DNA of 6,015 bases from a virus (taxonomy: Duplodnaviria > Heunggongvirae > Uroviricota > Caudoviricetes), in IMG/VR virus record IMGVR_UViG_3300015179_000022; one strand, given 5' to 3'. The translations under genes were made by a program, and so were the position numbers. Position 1 is the first letter of the stretch. Every line of letters begins with the position of its first letter. Below are positions 481 to 6,015 of this stretch, piece by piece. The notes beneath the pieces were generated by a model. It did no database searches and was not told the DNA's origin. It saw only the letters and a list, made by a program, of their open reading frames with translations.

Positions 481-514
481 CAAAAAATGGAAAAACCCGC
501 TCGACGGCGGGTTT
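481..514 (-). terminator. Rho-independent terminator (minus strand) upstream of the holin
   Basis: Stem CCCGC(496..500)/GCGGG(507..511) with 6-nt loop; on the minus strand it is followed by TTTTTCCATTTTTTG (complement of the A-runs at 481..495). Confidence 0.55.
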
Positions 515-659
515 AAGCTGTGTGACGAAGTAACCACTCTTAACAGCATAACCAATTTTTTACGTACGTAAACCACTAAATGATATTTGCGAGAATGCTA
601 CCGAGTATTGAAAACACCACTACAAATACATAAGCAAATCTCAACAAATAACCAACAAA

Positions 660-942: not shown

Positions 943-2025
943 ATGAAAAAATTAACAGTGGCAATTTCTGCTGTAGCTGCATCAGTACTGATGGCGATGT
1001 CTGCTCAGGCAGCTGAAATTTATAATAAAGACAGTAACAAGCTGGATCTGTACGGGAAAGTTAATGCTAAGCACTACTTCTCCTCTAATGATGCAGATGA
1101 TGGTGATACTACTTATGCCCGTCTTGGCTTCAAAGGTGAAACCCAAATCAACGATCAACTGACTGGTTTCGGTCAGTGGGAATATGAATTCAAAGGCAAC
1201 CGCGCTGAATCTCAAGGTTCCTCCAAAGACAAAACCCGTCTTGCATTTGCAGGCCTGAAATTCGGTGACTACGGCTCAATCGATTACGGCCGTAACTACG
1301 GTGTAGCATACGACATCGGTGCGTGGACTGACGTTCTGCCAGAATTCGGTGGCGATACCTGGACCCAAACAGATGTGTTCATGACTGGTCGCACCACTGG
1401 TGTTGCAACCTATCGTAACAACGACTTCTTTGGTCTGGTCGATGGCCTGAACTTTGCTGCTCAGTATCAGGGTAAAAATGACCGCACTGACGTAACTGAA
1501 GCCAATGGTGATGGTTTCGGTTTCTCCACTACTTATGAGTATGAAGGATTCGGCGTGGGTGCAACCTATGCTAAATCAGATCGCACTGACGGTCAGGTCG
1601 CCTATGGTAAGAGCAAATTCAATGCCTCCGGCAAAAATGCGGAAGTATGGGCTGCAGGCCTGAAATATGATGCGAACAATATCTATCTGGCTACCACATA
1701 TTCTGAAACTCAGAATATGACCGTTTTTGGTAATAACCATATTGCAAACAAAGCACAAAACTTTGAAGCAGTAGCACAATATCAGTTTGACTTCGGTCTG
1801 CGACCATCTGTTGCTTACCTTCAGTCAAAAGGTAAAGACCTTGGTGTTCATGGTGACCGAGACTTAGTCAAGTATGTCGATGTCGGTGCTACTTACTACT
1901 TTAATAAAAACATGTCCACTTTTGTTGATTACAAAATCAACTTAATTGACGATAGTAAGTTTACCAAAACAGCTGGTATTGATACCGACGACATCGTCGC
2001 TGTAGGTCTGGTGTATCAGTTCTAA
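943..2025 (+). CDS. nmpC: Outer-membrane general porin of the OmpC/OmpF/PhoE family, prophage-encoded NmpC/Lc type, 360 aa, apparently intact
   Basis: N-terminus [46 protein letters not shown] (signal peptide plus porin start), internal porin motifs and C-terminal ...VAVGLVYQF with terminal Phe. Convergent with quuD. Confidence 0.93.
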
Positions 2026-2035
2026 TCTGATTACG

Positions 2036-2075
2036 AAAAAGATATGTTGCGGGAGGCTTTGCCTCCCCAACATAT
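2036..2075 (-). terminator. Rho-independent terminator (minus strand), candidate tR'-like late terminator downstream of quuD
   Basis: About 15-bp stem with a one-base bulge (2042..2057 pairing 2061..2075), 3-nt loop; on the minus strand followed by CTTTTTCG (complement of 2034..2041). Confidence 0.6.
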
Positions 2076-2076
2076 A

Positions 2077-2214
2077 AGTGGCTCCCTCAAGCCACTTCCT
2101 TTAGGAGCACAACCTTGCTTCTAACTATATAAACCTTCTGTTATATATTACCCTTTATTTTTGGGGGCGTCTCAACGCCCCATTTTTAATAATTTTTAGT
2201 AAACAATTGGCATA
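2077..2214 (-). promoter_or_regulatory. Candidate late promoter / Q-utilisation (pR'/qut-like) region directly downstream of quuD
   Basis: Position immediately 3' of the Q-family gene and 5' of a strong minus-strand terminator, as in lambdoid phages. A TTGAGA -35-like hexamer (complement of 2170..2175) lies about 17-19 bp from GTAATA/TAATAT. No exact promoter could be assigned. Confidence 0.25.
2163..2190 (+). terminator. Rho-independent terminator (plus strand) for the porin transcript
   Basis: Stem GGGGCG(2164..2169)/CGCCCC(2176..2181), loop TCTCAA, followed on the plus strand by ATTTTTAATAATTTTT. Confidence 0.55.
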
Positions 2215-2598
2215 TTAATTAGAGTTATTAACAACGATATCCATCTCTAACCGGATATCTAATGCCATTAACATCCCTTCAATTATGCCCTCAGCCTTCT
2301 GTAACCTTTTCCCGATATAACCATCAGAGCAGCAATGCTTACCTGCCAGTGACATGAATGTCATACCGACTACATAATAATCTACCAATAAATCATGCAA
2401 ATCGCTGTTGTTCTTTTTCAGACGGGCCATGCACCCGCAAATGATCATCGCGTCATCGTCACAACATTGTGGGCGAGATTTTACTTTTGAAGGAATTAAT
2501 CCCTTAAAACCGGCGGCAATGGACGACCAGGTCACATCTTCATGATTATTAGCCGCCCACGCTCCCCAACGCTCAAGAACCATCTGAATATCACGCAT
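2215..2598 (-). CDS. quuD: Late-gene antitermination protein Q (phage 82 / DLP12 QuuD-type), 127 aa
   Basis: Translation from ATG 2596..2598: [31 protein letters not shown]...[32 protein letters not shown]..., recognised as the DLP12 QuuD family. GGAG Shine-Dalgarno upstream. The ORF-track N-terminal extension begins with TTG and was not used. Confidence 0.88.
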
Positions 2599-4281: not shown

Positions 4282-4791
4282 TTAGTCTGCCAAGTCTTCC
4301 TCAGTCGCAACTGGGTAATTCCAAATATCAAAAAAAGCTATAGCCTCCTGCCATTTGCTCCATAAGTTATCAAGTACTTGTGTAGGTTCCGTACTTTTAA
4401 AAACAGAATCAGCCGCATCACCGTTATGAACTTCCTCGTACAGTTCCATTATTAGCAGATTAACAAAGTACTGTTTCAACATTAATGCCTGATTACCTTC
4501 TTTCTGCTGGCTATCCTGCTTGATGATCTCCATCGCCCGTACTAGGCACCTGATGATATCCGCTGCATCATTAACGCTCCATTCAGATCCGCGCTTATCT
4601 TTAGCTGATGAATTGGCTCTCTCAGCGCAAGCCTTTAAAGACTCATAAAGGTAAACTCTATTTTGTAGCTGCAGCGCTTTTTTTGACGTGTACCAACTTG
4701 CAAGCGCCGACCCCGCTGCGGCTAATGTGCCAAACGCAGAAATGCCTGCTGCTATTGCACTTAAGTCGGCACTGTCAAAGTTCCACATCAT
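4282..4791 (-). CDS. Hypothetical protein, 169 aa: N-terminal Ala/Gly-rich hydrophobic segment (about residues 9-34, likely single transmembrane helix) followed by an acidic soluble domain; no family recognised
   Basis: Uninterrupted ORF with tandem ATGs at 4786..4791 preceded by AAGGTG. Hydrophobic stretch DLSAIAAGISAFGTLAAAGSALASWY followed by basic TSKKALQLQNR. Visibly more AT-rich than the flanking nin genes. Bounded upstream by its own terminator (4967..5006). Confidence 0.7.
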   Translation of the reverse strand: MMWNFDSADLSAIAAGISAFGTLAAAGSALASWYTSKKALQLQNRVYLYESLKACAERANSSAKDKRGSEWSVNDAADIIRCLVRAMEIIKQDSQQKEGNQALMLKQYFVNLLIMELYEEVHNGDAADSVFKSTEPTQVLDNLWSKWQEAIAFFDIWNYPVATEEDLAD

Positions 4792-5025: not shown

Positions 5026-5634
5026 TTATTGCAACAGATTCTGACGGAAATATGGTAACACTCGACTCCACTTATCATCCTGCCACGGTTGGAATTTTAC
5101 ATGCGCCGTTTCTCTGGCAAGGATTTCTCGCGCCCTGTTGAGTATCCGAGGATATTCTTGTTCGATTGAAGTGAATCTACCTGCTTCGCGATGCTCTGCG
5201 ACCTGAAGAAGGGGCGTAACGTTCTGGCAGGCGGTTAACATCGTATCACTTGCTCGCCATAACCAGGCGAGTGTGCAAAGTTCGTTATCAGTGAATTGTT
5301 TTGTGATTGGGGATTGTTGAACTTCTCGATCGAGAATATCCAGAACCCAGCGGCGGAATTCTTTGGCCACAGGAGTACGAGCAAACATGGCGATCAAATG
5401 GGCTCCGCGAAGGCTAAATACTCGAGACTCCTGCATTCCACGAGGGGTGGTCACTTTGACCACCCTTGTCATCATATCTGTGAATTCATCTGAGTGCCGA
5501 GAGTAAATGCGCTGAACTGCTTTATCGTCCGCATATTCCAGTGCTAAACCAACTTCAGTGGCAGTAAGCCAAATTCTGTTATTGTGGCAAATCGGGGTAA
5601 ACGTCGTTTTGTGGAATGCTAATTGAGTAGTCAT
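5026..5634 (-). CDS. Bro-N domain DNA-binding protein, Roi/antirepressor-like, 202 aa
   Basis: ATG at 5632..5634 with GAGGTGA Shine-Dalgarno. N-terminal half (FHKTTFTPICHNNRIWLTATEVGLALEYADDKAVQRIYSRHSDEFT...FRRWVLDILDREV) fits the Bro-N pattern and resembles Roi-type proteins found in lambdoid nin regions. C-terminal half not recognised. Confidence 0.75.
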   Translation of the reverse strand: MTTQLAFHKTTFTPICHNNRIWLTATEVGLALEYADDKAVQRIYSRHSDEFTDMMTRVVKVTTPRGMQESRVFSLRGAHLIAMFARTPVAKEFRRWVLDILDREVQQSPITKQFTDNELCTLAWLWRASDTMLTACQNVTPLLQVAEHREAGRFTSIEQEYPRILNRAREILARETAHVKFQPWQDDKWSRVLPYFRQNLLQ

Positions 5635-5658: not shown

Positions 5659-5691
5659 TCACCACCAACGACGCCAATCGACTGGTGGTGA
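5659..5691. repeat. Perfect 9-bp inverted repeat TCACCACCA / TGGTGGTGA with 15-bp spacer, in the leader of the Roi-like gene
   Basis: Arms at 5659..5667 and 5683..5691, read directly from the sequence; located about 25-60 nt upstream of the Roi-like start on the transcribed strand. Confidence 0.5.
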
Positions 5692-5790
5692 ACTGTGTAA
5701 GGTTGGCGTAACCGGCTACTCAAACCCGGCGCTTCCGAAGAAGCCCTCACACAGCCCACCATAATTTGGGCATAGCCGTGCTTAGCGCAC

Positions 5791-5811
5791 AAAAAAACCG
5801 CTTAACGCGGT
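5791..5811 (-). terminator. Rho-independent terminator (minus strand), possibly tR2-like early-operon terminator
   Basis: Stem ACCGC/GCGGT (5797..5801 / 5807..5811), loop TTAAC; on the minus strand followed by a run of 7 T (complement of 5791..5797). Confidence 0.5.
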
Positions 5812-5896
5812 ATGCGTTGAGTAGTATCCCGGGACGCCAATCCCGTGTGCCGATTTTGCGGCAACGCACAGAATATAGCGCCGGATAAATCTTGTC

Positions 5897-6015
5897 GGTG
5901 ATGCTGCCAACTTACTGATTTAGTGTATGATGGTGTTTTTGAGGTGCTCCAGTGGCTTCTGTTTCTATCAGCTGTCCCTCCTGTTCAGCTACTGACGGGG
6001 TGGTGCGTAACGGCA
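5897..6015 (+). mobile_element. IS1 insertion sequence, left end (terminal inverted repeat plus start of insA), continues beyond the window
   Basis: 5897 onward reads GGTGATGCTGCCAACTTACTGATTTAGTGTATGATGGTGTTTTTGAGGTGCTCCAGTGGCTTCTGTTTCTATCAGCTGTCCC..., the canonical IS1 terminus and insA leader as I recall them. Confidence 0.92.
5952..6015 (+). CDS. insA: IS1 InsA (transposition inhibitor / N-terminal part of InsAB' transposase), 5' fragment only
   Basis: GTG at 5952..5954 (IS1 position 56) followed by codons for ASVSISCPSCSATDGVVRNG, the InsA N-terminus with its zinc-finger cysteines. Truncated by the window edge. Confidence 0.85.
   Translation, partial: MASVSISCPSCSATDGVVRNG

What the first reader, a model, noticed from the sequence alone, without database searches (positions are those of the whole stretch)
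2026..2214. Convergent quuD/porin intergenic region with a terminator on each strand and a likely late promoter
Two hairpins sit here: a long bulged stem with a T-run on the minus strand (2036..2075) and a GC stem with a T-run on the plus strand (2163..2190). The minus-strand one is positioned like tR' after a promoter adjacent to Q. If so, Q-modified late transcription must run antisense through the whole porin gene to reach the holin, linking porin expression inversely to late-gene transcription. The GC hairpin loop carries a -35-like TTGAGA on the minus strand.
Basis: partly seen in the sequence, partly recalled or inferred. Interest (0 to 1): 0.42.

Follow-up and report, generated by a model that had tools for sequence, protein, structure and literature searches.

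The report
Back-to-back terminators, not the late promoter
The two hairpins between the prophage antiterminator gene quuD and the porin gene are real and look like ordinary back-to-back terminators, but the phage's late promoter lies 1.6 kb further on, between the porin and the holin, so late transcription need not cross the porin gene.

Summary
A bulged 16-pair stem (2075-2042) followed by T5 sits on the minus strand. A 7-pair GC stem (2164-2181) followed by ATTTTTAATAATTTTT sits on the plus strand. TTGAGA spans the GC hairpin's loop.

Reading the hairpins as a terminator on each strand is reasonable. Reading them as a late promoter plus tR' is not.

QuuD belongs to the Q21 Pfam family and is 79-82% identical to the Q protein of Stx phages. 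The promoter that travels with this Q clade is TTTACG-N16-TATxxT, with a 14-bp palindrome over the -35. In the window it lies at 572-545 on the minus strand, followed by a hairpin plus U-run at 514-487 and the holin ATG at 353.

That stretch is homologous to the PR' of phage Sp5, which was mapped by dRNA-seq and Term-seq. All 106 evaluable viral contigs carrying the motif have a Q of this clade upstream: adjacent in 28, separated by the porin in 60, and by other cargo in 18.

So the porin sits between Q and pR', outside the late operon. The locus is the long-known PA-2 lc / DLP12 nmpC module, and the finding is ordinary. A short constitutive RNA made from 2175-2036 cannot be excluded.

The parts
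2164..2196 (+). Intrinsic terminator of the porin (lc/nmpC-type) gene: GC stem 2164-2181, loop CTCA, tail ATTTTTAATAATTTTT. It lies about 140 nt after the porin stop codon.
   Evidence: Top terminator-like site; dG -13.9, z -3.5. Across 29 unique variants from 83 loci the stem changes only once (2170 A to G, which keeps a U.G pair), while 3 of the 4 loop positions vary.
2036..2075 (-). Bulged hairpin (2075-2042) plus C-TTTTT (2040-2036). Terminator-like element at the end of the quuD (early-right) transcription unit, facing the 3' end of the porin gene.
   Evidence: dG -22.7, z -6.3. Common variation falls in the loop (2058) and at the bulge (2050); four stem positions (2069, 2067, 2057, 2054) change in only one or two variants each. 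The T-run is T5 in 17 and T4 in 12 of 29 unique variants, and T3 in one degraded remnant. In K-12, adding an rrnB terminator in this intergenic region changed nothing downstream (PMC11677980).
2076..2099 (.). Small third hairpin (8-9 pairs) between the two terminators. No clear U-tract on either strand.
   Evidence: dG -11.1 on plus, -13.7 on minus. Phage 4A7 loses 2 stem pairs without compensation.
2145..2175 (-). If active, it would start near 2138 and give an RNA of about 100 nt ending at 2036. Function unproven, and not a Q-loading site.
   Evidence: Not listed by the consensus scan, which allows spacers of 16-18 only. It scores 10.8 bits in my rough PWM, the 4th best in the window. The -35 positions 2174, 2172, 2171 and 2170 vary among relatives. 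No clade-specific motif is present here.
2215..2598 (-). quuD, a late antiterminator Q of the Q21 Pfam family.
   Evidence: PF06530, E = 8.5e-54. Distant match to the Q21 structures 6P18/6JNX. 79-82% identical to the Q of Stx phages.
943..2025 (+). Porin gene (lc/nmpC/OmpD-like). Cargo gene in opposite orientation, located between Q and its late promoter.
   Evidence: PF00267, E = 1.9e-151. Same arrangement in phage PA-2 (J02580), 434B, 4A7, mEp332 and K-12 DLP12.
545..572 (-). Cognate late promoter pR': -35 TTTACG (572-567), 16-nt spacer, -10 TATGCT (550-545). A 14-bp perfect palindrome TTTACGTACGTAAA (572-559) overlaps the -35 and is the candidate Q-binding element. The inferred start is A538.
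   Evidence: Homology to Sp5/Stx2 PR': 64 of 88 identical; local score 69 against 15.8 +/- 2.2 (maximum 26) in 1000 shuffles. In Sp5 the same geometry gives exactly the 258-nt PR'-to-tR' RNA measured by dRNA-seq and Term-seq. Palindrome. Block 573-531 is invariant but for one site in 24 unique variants, while 617-574 is polymorphic.
481..514 (-). First terminator after pR' (tR' candidate): AAACCCGC-CGTCGA-GCGGGTTT followed by TTCCATTTTTT, at about +25 to +58 of the late transcript and roughly 130 nt before the holin ATG.
   Evidence: Second-ranked terminator-like site; dG -12.0. Homologous to the hairpin at the same position in Stx phage and Morganella phage leaders.
138..353 (-). Holin (S21-type), first late gene.
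   Evidence: PF04971, E = 2e-35.

Best explanation
The 189-bp quuD/porin intergenic region is a junction of two converging transcription units and holds their ends, not the start of the late operon.

On the plus strand, the GC hairpin plus U-run (2164-2196) terminates the porin mRNA. That leaves a 3' UTR of about 165 nt which also contains the other two hairpins.

On the minus strand, the long bulged hairpin plus U5 (2075-2036) stops unmodified RNA polymerase that has read through quuD. In a lysogen, stray early-right transcription is therefore kept from running antisense into the porin gene. (That it terminates is inferred from its anatomy and from one K-12 experiment.)

The porin is cargo sitting in a slot between Q and Q's own promoter. 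QuuD made from the early transcript acts 1.6 kb further on, at pR' (572-545, start about 538). There a clade-specific 14-bp palindrome overlaps the -35. QuuD lets polymerase pass the terminator at 514-481 into holin, endolysin and the rest of the late genes.

Shown here: the hairpins, the homology of 572-487 to a mapped PR', and the strict co-occurrence of that motif with this Q clade.

Inferred: that transcription starts at 538, that the palindrome is the Q-binding element, and that both intergenic hairpins terminate in vivo.

Antisense transcription of the porin during lytic growth may still occur through antiterminated early (N-type) transcription, but not through Q-modified late transcription.
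For: Hairpin anatomy and stability.

Pattern of variation in 83 loci (29 unique): loops and the bulge carry the common variants, and stems are nearly invariant.

Q family and clade.

Promoter homology to Stx PR': with the mapped start and end from PMC7547250.

Forward association: the exact motif TTTACGNNCGTAAAAA occurs once in 87 of 90 loci. It lies next to the Q stop in the Stx and Morganella phages and about 1.65 kb downstream of Q, after the porin, in 80+ porin-type loci.

Reverse association: a scan for the motif in viral contigs gave 120 stretches. A Q of this clade lies upstream on the same strand in 106; the other 14 have less than 2.2 kb of upstream sequence. Q is adjacent in 28, separated by the porin in 60, and by other cargo in 18.

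Phage ev087 (Q 89% identical): Q, then a terminator, then a reverse-oriented lipocalin gene, a ybgA-like gene, then TTTACA-N16-TATGAT carrying the same motif with 1 mismatch.

Absence from the finding region: no match to the motif in 2026-2214 with up to 3 mismatches.

Conservation: 573-531 is nearly invariant while the flanks are polymorphic.

Literature: the published '+1' of the DLP12 lysis operon maps to about window 894, also beyond the porin. Phage 434B is viable with the DLP12 Q / late promoter / lysis segment. An extra terminator in the K-12 quuD/nmpC spacer has no effect.
Against: No transcript ends were measured for this phage, so the start at 538 rests on homology alone.

By consensus score, pR' at 572-545 is only moderate (8/12; 8.0 bits), and TTGAGA-N19-TAATAT next to quuD scores higher (10.8 bits).

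The minus-strand U-tract is short (5 U) and drops to 4 U in 12 of 29 unique variants, so termination may be partial.

In Sp5, RNA evidently passes the homologue of the 514-481 hairpin and ends at a second terminator 258 nt from the start, so the efficiency of 514-481 is uncertain.

The published essDp start (about 894; RpoE-dependent according to PMC7918800's citation) differs from my 538, and I could not read that paper.

The loci compared are closely related, so the counts are not independent events.
Confidence: 0.75

Rival explanations
1. First reader's model. A late promoter pR' lies next to quuD (-35 TTGAGA in the hairpin loop, -10 TAATAT, pause element TATAGT). The hairpin 2075-2036 is its tR'. 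Q-modified polymerase runs antisense through the whole porin gene to reach the holin.
For: The position relative to Q resembles lambda, 21, 82 and the Stx phages. The site is sigma-70-like, 10.8 bits in my PWM. A second -10-like hexamer, TATAGT (2129-2124), would lie at about +10 to +15, where a sigma-dependent pause element could sit. A terminator follows about 100 nt downstream.
Against: The motif that accompanies this Q clade in 106 of 106 evaluable loci is absent here and present at 572-557. The homologue of the mapped Stx PR' is at 572-538. The spacer is 19 nt, and the site was not found by the standard scan. Four of six -35 positions vary among functional phages (TTGAGA, TTGAAA, TTGCAA, TGGAAA, TCGAGA, TTGAAG). 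A second, complete promoter-plus-terminator set before the holin would be redundant.
Confidence: 0.06
2. A small constitutive RNA gene. The TTGAGA-N19-TAATAT site drives a Q-independent RNA of about 100 nt (about 2138 to 2036) that ends at the bulged hairpin. It would be fully complementary to the porin 3' UTR and could act on the porin mRNA in cis, or in trans like StxS.
For: The PWM score is high for this window. The core 2152-2112 changes in only a few variants across 29 unique sequences and is nearly unchanged in a remnant whose flanks are only about 82% identical. ev087 also has a promoter-like site plus a terminator directly after Q. Precedent: the short PR' RNA of Stx phages is a functional sRNA (PMC7547250).
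Against: No expression data were found (searches found nothing). There is no Rfam family above chance. The spacer is poor and the -35 is variable. The U-tail is short (4-5 U) for an Hfq-type sRNA. The conservation may simply reflect recent common descent.
Confidence: 0.17
3. The long hairpin 2042-2075 works on the plus strand, as a 3' stabiliser or processing barrier of the porin mRNA 16 nt after its stop codon. The A5/T5 run is incidental, and there is no minus-strand terminator.
For: The hairpin is equally stable on the plus strand (dG -23.3, z -6.5). The stem is conserved while the T-run is not (T5, T4, T3).
Against: There is no U-tract after it on the plus strand, whereas a canonical terminator follows at 2164-2196. 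Another phage with reverse-oriented cargo after a Q of this clade (ev087) also has a Q-strand terminator at that place. The K-12 experiment suggests that nothing reads through from the quuD side.
Confidence: 0.12

Closest known systems
PR' / StxS / tR' cassette of Stx phages (Sp5, Sp15, 933W-type; Sy et al. 2020, PMC7547250)
   Same: The Q protein is 79-82% identical. The window has the same promoter (TTTACG-N16-TATxxT), the same 14-bp palindrome, the same initial transcribed sequence AGAGTGGTTAC and the same first hairpin plus U-run, but at 572-481 and not in the finding region.
   Different: In Stx phages the -35 abuts the Q stop codon and cargo (tRNAs, stx) follows tR'. Here 1.65 kb of cargo (terminators plus the porin) separates Q from the promoter. 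The 3' part of the Stx leader (the StxS body and second terminator) is absent.
Lambda pR' / qut / 6S RNA / tR' (the textbook Q cassette; from established knowledge and PMC9388147)
   Same: The logic is the same: a constitutive promoter, Q loading at a promoter-proximal site, and a terminator before the lysis genes.
   Different: Q-lambda (PF03589) is unrelated to QuuD (PF06530). In lambda the cassette directly follows Q. The finding region has the right position but lacks the clade's promoter motif.
Phage 21 Q21 and its QBE (two direct TGAGCA repeats between -35 and -10; PMC6606751)
   Same: Same Pfam family as QuuD. The structures 6P18/6JNX are the only solved relatives.
   Different: Only about 35% identity over 80 residues. 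No TGAGCA direct repeats here. The conserved element of the QuuD/Q933 clade is an inverted repeat over the -35.
Phage PA-2 lc and E. coli K-12 DLP12 (qsr') nmpC locus (GenBank J02580; NC_000913.3 573,956-577,613)
   Same: The intergenic region is 98-99% identical, with the same gene order Q, porin (reverse), holin. The window is a member of this module, which is present in at least 2,186 of 5,426 complete E. coli genomes.
   Different: K-12 has IS5 in the 3' end of nmpC; the window's porin is intact. Neither record annotates the hairpins as terminators.
Reverse-oriented lysogenic-conversion cargo ('morons') in lambdoid phages, such as lambda bor (from established knowledge)
   Same: An autonomous gene with its own promoter and terminator, oriented against the flanking phage transcription.
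   Different: Lambda bor lies inside the late transcript. Here the cargo lies upstream of the late promoter, so it is outside it.

Membership tests
Q-dependent late cassette (pR' + QBE + pause element + tR'), tested on 2026-2214 | Sigma-70 promoter on the late strand just downstream of Q | tested here: inconclusive
   Only TTGAGA-N19-TAATAT is present. It is absent from the 16-18-nt-spacer scan and scores 10.8 bits in my PWM. The -35 varies at 4 of 6 positions among relatives.
Q-dependent late cassette, tested on 2026-2214 | Binding element cognate to the resident Q | tested here: not met
   The motif that co-occurs with this Q clade has no match in 2026-2214 with up to 3 mismatches; the only minus-strand match in the window is at 557-572. 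A gapped resemblance (GTTTAC...TAAAAAT at 2204-2182) is not above chance: local score 19 against 15.9 +/- 2.1, reached by 108 of 1000 shuffles.
Q-dependent late cassette, tested on 2026-2214 | -10-like pause element in the initial transcribed region | tested here: inconclusive
   TATAGT at 2129-2124 would lie at about +10 to +15 of a start at 2138. In an AT-rich spacer this could be chance.
Q-dependent late cassette, tested on 2026-2214 | Intrinsic terminator within about 50-260 nt of the start | tested here: met
   Hairpin 2075-2042 plus T5.
Q-dependent late cassette, tested on 2026-2214 | Q-dependent read-through of the terminator | not testable with these tools
   Needs reporter fusions or in vitro transcription with QuuD.
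Q-dependent late cassette, tested on 572-481 | Homology to an experimentally mapped PR' of the same Q clade, followed by a terminator before the lysis genes | tested here: met
   for the homology and the 258-nt geometry. for the terminator. The holin follows at 353.
Rho-independent (intrinsic) terminator, plus strand 2164-2196 | GC-rich stem-loop immediately followed by a U-rich tract | tested here: met
   7 pairs (6 G-C), 4-nt loop, tail ATTTTTAATA. Variation falls in the loop; the stem changes once, keeping the pair.
Rho-independent (intrinsic) terminator, minus strand 2075-2036 | Stable stem-loop immediately followed by a U-rich tract | tested here: inconclusive
   The stem is very stable (-22.7 kcal/mol). 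The tract is C-U5-CGU, reduced to U4 in 12 of 29 variants and U3 in one remnant. Termination efficiency is unknown.
Moron (autonomous cargo gene in a prophage) | Own terminator and own promoter, dispensable for phage growth, variable presence at a fixed slot | tested here: met
   Own terminator. CRP sites are annotated upstream of lc in PA-2; the promoter itself was not tested. The same slot between Q and pR' is empty in 28 loci, holds the porin in 60 and other genes in 18. K-12 and 434B carry the porin inactivated by IS5.

The most novel reading that the evidence does not exclude
The conserved core of the spacer may be a small-RNA gene. Its -35 would sit in the loop of the porin terminator, and its own terminator would be the bulged hairpin. 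The resulting constitutive RNA of about 100 nt (about 2138 to 2036, minus strand) would be fully complementary to the porin 3' UTR. It could tune expression of the lysogenic-conversion porin, or act in trans as StxS does in Stx phages.
Probability: 0.15. Interest if true: 0.45.

Novelty: new member of a known kind. Interest (0 to 1): 0.18.

Why it matters
The result mainly corrects a plausible mis-annotation. In this very common E. coli prophage module (at least 2,186 of 5,426 complete genomes), the porin conversion gene is not embedded in the late operon. It sits in a cargo slot between the antiterminator gene and that antiterminator's own promoter, with a terminator facing each way. The proposed inverse coupling of porin expression to Q-dependent late transcription therefore has no basis.

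One by-product is more useful than the finding itself. The QuuD/Q933 clade of Q proteins, which includes the Q that controls Shiga toxin expression, always travels with a promoter carrying a 14-bp palindrome over its -35. That gives a concrete candidate Q-binding element to test.

Tried and rejected
1. I first assumed QuuD was phage-82-like. Pfam places it in the Q21 family instead.

2. I looked for Q21-type TGAGCA direct repeats. Only isolated TGAG words occur in two hairpin loops (2174-2171 and 2089-2086), and the first is lost in phages 4A7 and Turner. Rejected.

3. I considered that GTTTAC...TAAAAAT next to quuD might be a remnant of the pR' -35 and palindrome. The local alignment score is not above shuffles, and the first AAAAAT varies. 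Rejected as unsupported.

4. I considered the ORF running through the terminator (43 aa, 2073-1942; 'ORF1' in PA-2, pseudogene CPT_434B_68). The T5-to-T4 variants shift its frame. Not a gene.

5. I searched supplements of E. coli Term-seq, Cappable-seq, SMRT-Cappable-seq and Rend-seq papers for K-12 coordinates or gene names. Nothing was held or found.

6. The two Rueggeberg papers on Q(DLP12) and essDp are not held. Their '+1' was reconstructed from the primers of PMC7918800.

7. Rfam shows nothing above chance in 1990-2260 or 340-960.

8. The blastn 'distant' search with the spacer finds only the 36 porin-carrying phages, so no informative distant homologues exist for a covariation test.

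9. The Sakai coordinates in PMC7547250 are offset by 142 nt from NC_002695.2. I relied on the 258-nt distance rather than on absolute coordinates.

Full report
WHAT THE WINDOW IS. The late (rightward) direction of this lambdoid prophage is the minus strand of the window. Pfam and PHROGs assign the genes as follows:
- an antirepressor-like gene (5634-5026);
- an unknown gene (4791-4282);
- a NinB/Orf-like ybcN (4087-3710);
- ninE, ybcO, rusA and ylcG;
- quuD (2598-2215; PF06530, the Q21 family of antiterminators);
- on the plus strand, a porin (943-2025);
- back on the minus strand, an S21-type holin (353-138).

The same order is annotated in E. coli K-12 DLP12, where nmpC is broken by IS5. It is also annotated in functional phages such as 4A7, Turner, mEp332 and 434B, and in the 1986 record of phage PA-2 (lc gene). 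The junction occurs in at least 2,186 of 5,426 complete E. coli genomes.

THE OBSERVATION.
- Minus strand: 2075-2042 forms a stem with one bulged G and an AAA loop (dG -22.7 kcal/mol, z -6.3, none of 200 shuffles as stable). It is followed by C-TTTTT at 2040-2036. The consensus scan misses it only because of the bulge.
- Plus strand: GGGGCGT-CTCA-ACGCCCC (2164-2181) followed by ATTTTTAATAATTTTT is the best terminator-like site in the window (dG -13.9).
- A third, weaker hairpin lies at 2076-2099.
- TTGAGA is at 2175-2170 on the minus strand, across the loop.

Across 83 related loci (29 unique sequences), common variation in the GC hairpin is confined to three of its four loop bases. One further stem change keeps a U.G pair. 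In the long hairpin the common variants are in the loop and at the bulge, and four stem positions change in only one or two variants each. That pattern is what constrained hairpins show, although the sequences are close relatives. The T-run is less constrained: T5 in 17 unique variants, T4 in 12, and T3 in one degraded remnant.

WHERE THE LATE PROMOTER REALLY IS. QuuD is only distantly related to Q21 itself, but it is 79-82% identical to the 144-residue Q of Stx phages. For those phages the late promoter has been mapped. dRNA-seq and Term-seq place the PR' start 258 nt upstream of the tR' 3' end, 'closely associated with Q' (PMC7547250).

In the Sakai Sp5 sequence, the promoter TTTACG-N16-TATCAT overlaps the end of Q. 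Seven bases after its -10 is an A that lies exactly 257 nt before the last T of the tR' T-run. The mapped start is therefore this promoter's.

The window has no such sequence next to quuD. It has one at 572-545 on the minus strand: TTTACG, 16 nt, TATGCT, then GTTAAG, then A538 followed by GAGTGGTTAC, then AAACCCGC-CGTCGA-GCGGGTTT plus a T-rich tail (514-481).

This aligns with the Stx PR' region from the -35 through the first hairpin. Identity is 64 of 88 positions. The local score is 69, against 15.8 +/- 2.2 (maximum 26) for 1000 shuffles. The same alignment includes a Morganella phage whose Q is 67% identical.

In all three, the -35 is the left half of a perfect 14-bp palindrome, TTTACG(AT or TA)CGTAAA. 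The central change keeps the symmetry.

ASSOCIATION WITH THE Q CLADE, IN BOTH DIRECTIONS. Starting from Q: 87 of 90 loci then in hand carry exactly one copy of TTTACGNNCGTAAAAA. It is adjacent to Q in the Stx and Morganella phages and about 1.65 kb downstream, beyond the porin, in the porin-type loci.

The three exceptions fit:
- one locus has a short flank;
- one is SfIV, whose Q is only 52% identical;
- one is phage ev087 (Q 89% identical), which carries a one-mismatch copy with TTTACA-N16-TATGAT 1.9 kb downstream of Q. That copy lies after a terminator, a reverse-oriented lipocalin gene and a ybgA-like gene.

Starting from the motif: a scan of viral contigs returned 120 stretches. In 106 of them a Q of this clade lies upstream on the same strand. 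The other 14 have less than 2.2 kb of upstream sequence, so there is no counter-example. Q is adjacent in 28. It is separated by the porin in 60. In 18 it is separated by other cargo: a CPBP-like membrane protein, antirepressor modules, or a pair of large ATPase-like genes.

Within the porin-type loci the block 573-531 is invariant except for one site in one variant, while the 45 nt upstream of it carry several common polymorphisms.

LITERATURE. I could not read the two papers on Q(DLP12) and the essD promoter. PMC7918800 amplifies 'the regulatory region from -121 to +650' as defined by one of them. Its primers map to window 1015-996 and into essD, giving an amplicon of exactly 771 nt in K-12. 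That puts the published '+1' at about window 894 on the minus strand.

That site differs from my 538, but it too lies between the porin and the holin. The amplicon also contains the Stx-like promoter. [quoted passage not shown] In K-12, inserting an rrnB terminator in the quuD/nmpC spacer had no effect on IS5. [quoted passage not shown]

WHAT THE FINDING REGION THEREFORE IS. It is the meeting point of two converging units.
- The GC hairpin plus U-run ends the porin mRNA.
- The bulged hairpin plus U5 ends unmodified transcription coming out of quuD and shields the porin from antisense read-through.

ev087, which also has reverse-oriented cargo after Q, likewise has a Q-strand terminator at that spot. 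The porin is cargo in a slot between Q and pR', outside the late operon. Antiterminated early transcription may still cross the porin during lytic growth. That is an inference I could not test.

WHAT REMAINS OPEN. TTGAGA-N19-TAATAT scores well in a rough position-weight scan (10.8 bits, 4th in the window). The homologous pR' scores 8.0. The stretch 2152-2112 changes in only a few variants. A constitutive, Q-independent RNA of about 100 nt, antisense to the porin 3' UTR, is therefore possible. I give it about 0.15-0.17.

Against it:
- the 19-nt spacer;
- the variable -35;
- the short U-tail;
- no Rfam family;
- no expression data that I could find.

The hairpin 2042-2075 could also serve the plus strand as a 3' stabiliser of the porin mRNA.

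VERDICT. Interest is low (0.18). The by-products are more interesting than the finding: the cargo slot between Q and pR', and the palindromic candidate Q-binding element shared with Shiga-toxin phages.

Noticed in passing
window 559-572 (minus-strand promoter 572-545); L091 712-725; L089 2926-2939: A perfect 14-bp palindrome, TTTACG(TA/AT)CGTAAA, overlaps the -35 of the late promoter in every member of the QuuD/Q933 clade examined. The central dinucleotide differs (TA here, AT in the Stx and Morganella phages) but the symmetry is kept. It is a candidate Q-binding element, and it would differ from the direct repeats bound by Q21.
   Followed up: partly
loci L096-L215 and L092: In this Q clade the gene for Q and its cognate promoter are often separated by cargo. 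The cargo is the porin in 60 loci. In 18 loci it is other genes (CPBP-like membrane protein, antirepressor/isrK-C4 modules, a 517-aa plus 370-aa ATPase-like pair, lipocalin plus a ybgA-like gene). Nothing intervenes in 28. A cargo hot-spot upstream of pR', rather than downstream of tR', seems worth describing.
   Followed up: partly
window about 931-894 (minus strand) versus 572-538: The '+1' of the DLP12 lysis operon used in the literature (reconstructed from the primers of PMC7918800) falls at about 894, inside the divergent porin promoter region. That is 356 nt upstream of the Stx-like pR'. The reporter fragment used there contains both sites, so published Q-dependence cannot tell them apart.
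   Followed up: partly
window 5681-5878 (minus strand) and 5026-5634: Rfam finds a C4 antisense RNA (74.8 bits), an isrK-like RNA (58.7 bits) and the a1/b1 target (39.6 bits, below that family's gathering score of 46.7) just upstream of a Bro-N/P22AR antirepressor gene. This is a P1/P7-type immI-like antirepressor control module in a lambdoid nin region.
   Followed up: no
window 5897-6015: The last 119 nt are 100% identical to the end of the IS1 copy in Shigella phage SfIV (L090 3101-3219). The window therefore ends inside an IS1 inserted just upstream of the isrK/C4 module.
   Followed up: yes
window 538-518 (minus strand): The first 21 nt of the inferred late transcript (AGAGTGGTTACTTCGTCACAC) correspond to the stretch annotated as a CRP/CAP binding site in the PA-2 record (L005 1730-1750). 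A CRP site over the late-promoter start, shared with the divergent porin regulatory region, might couple the two.
   Followed up: no
window 416-401: A 16-nt segment of the holin leader (CTGCTTTTTTGCGATA) is absent from 7 of 24 unique variants, including K-12 DLP12.
   Followed up: no
L087 2880-3020 (phage ev087, just after Q): A good sigma-70-like promoter (TTGCTG-N17-TAATGT) is followed by a -10-like TAGAAT. It ends in a terminator, AGCCAGCCTCCCCAAAGGCTGG plus T8, that resembles the tR'/StxS terminator of Stx phages. It may be a small-RNA gene sitting between Q and reverse-oriented cargo.
   Followed up: no
window 4282-4791 (minus strand): A 169-aa ORF with no Pfam match; it is a full-length member of PHROG 1779 (unknown function).
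   Followed up: no
L086 2976-3004 / L091 768-796 (Stx phages): The Stx PR' leader has a canonical-looking hairpin plus U7 at about +25 to +50, yet the reported RNA ends 258 nt from the start. Either this first terminator is leaky or very short products escaped detection. This bears on how efficient the homologous window terminator (514-481) is.
   Followed up: no
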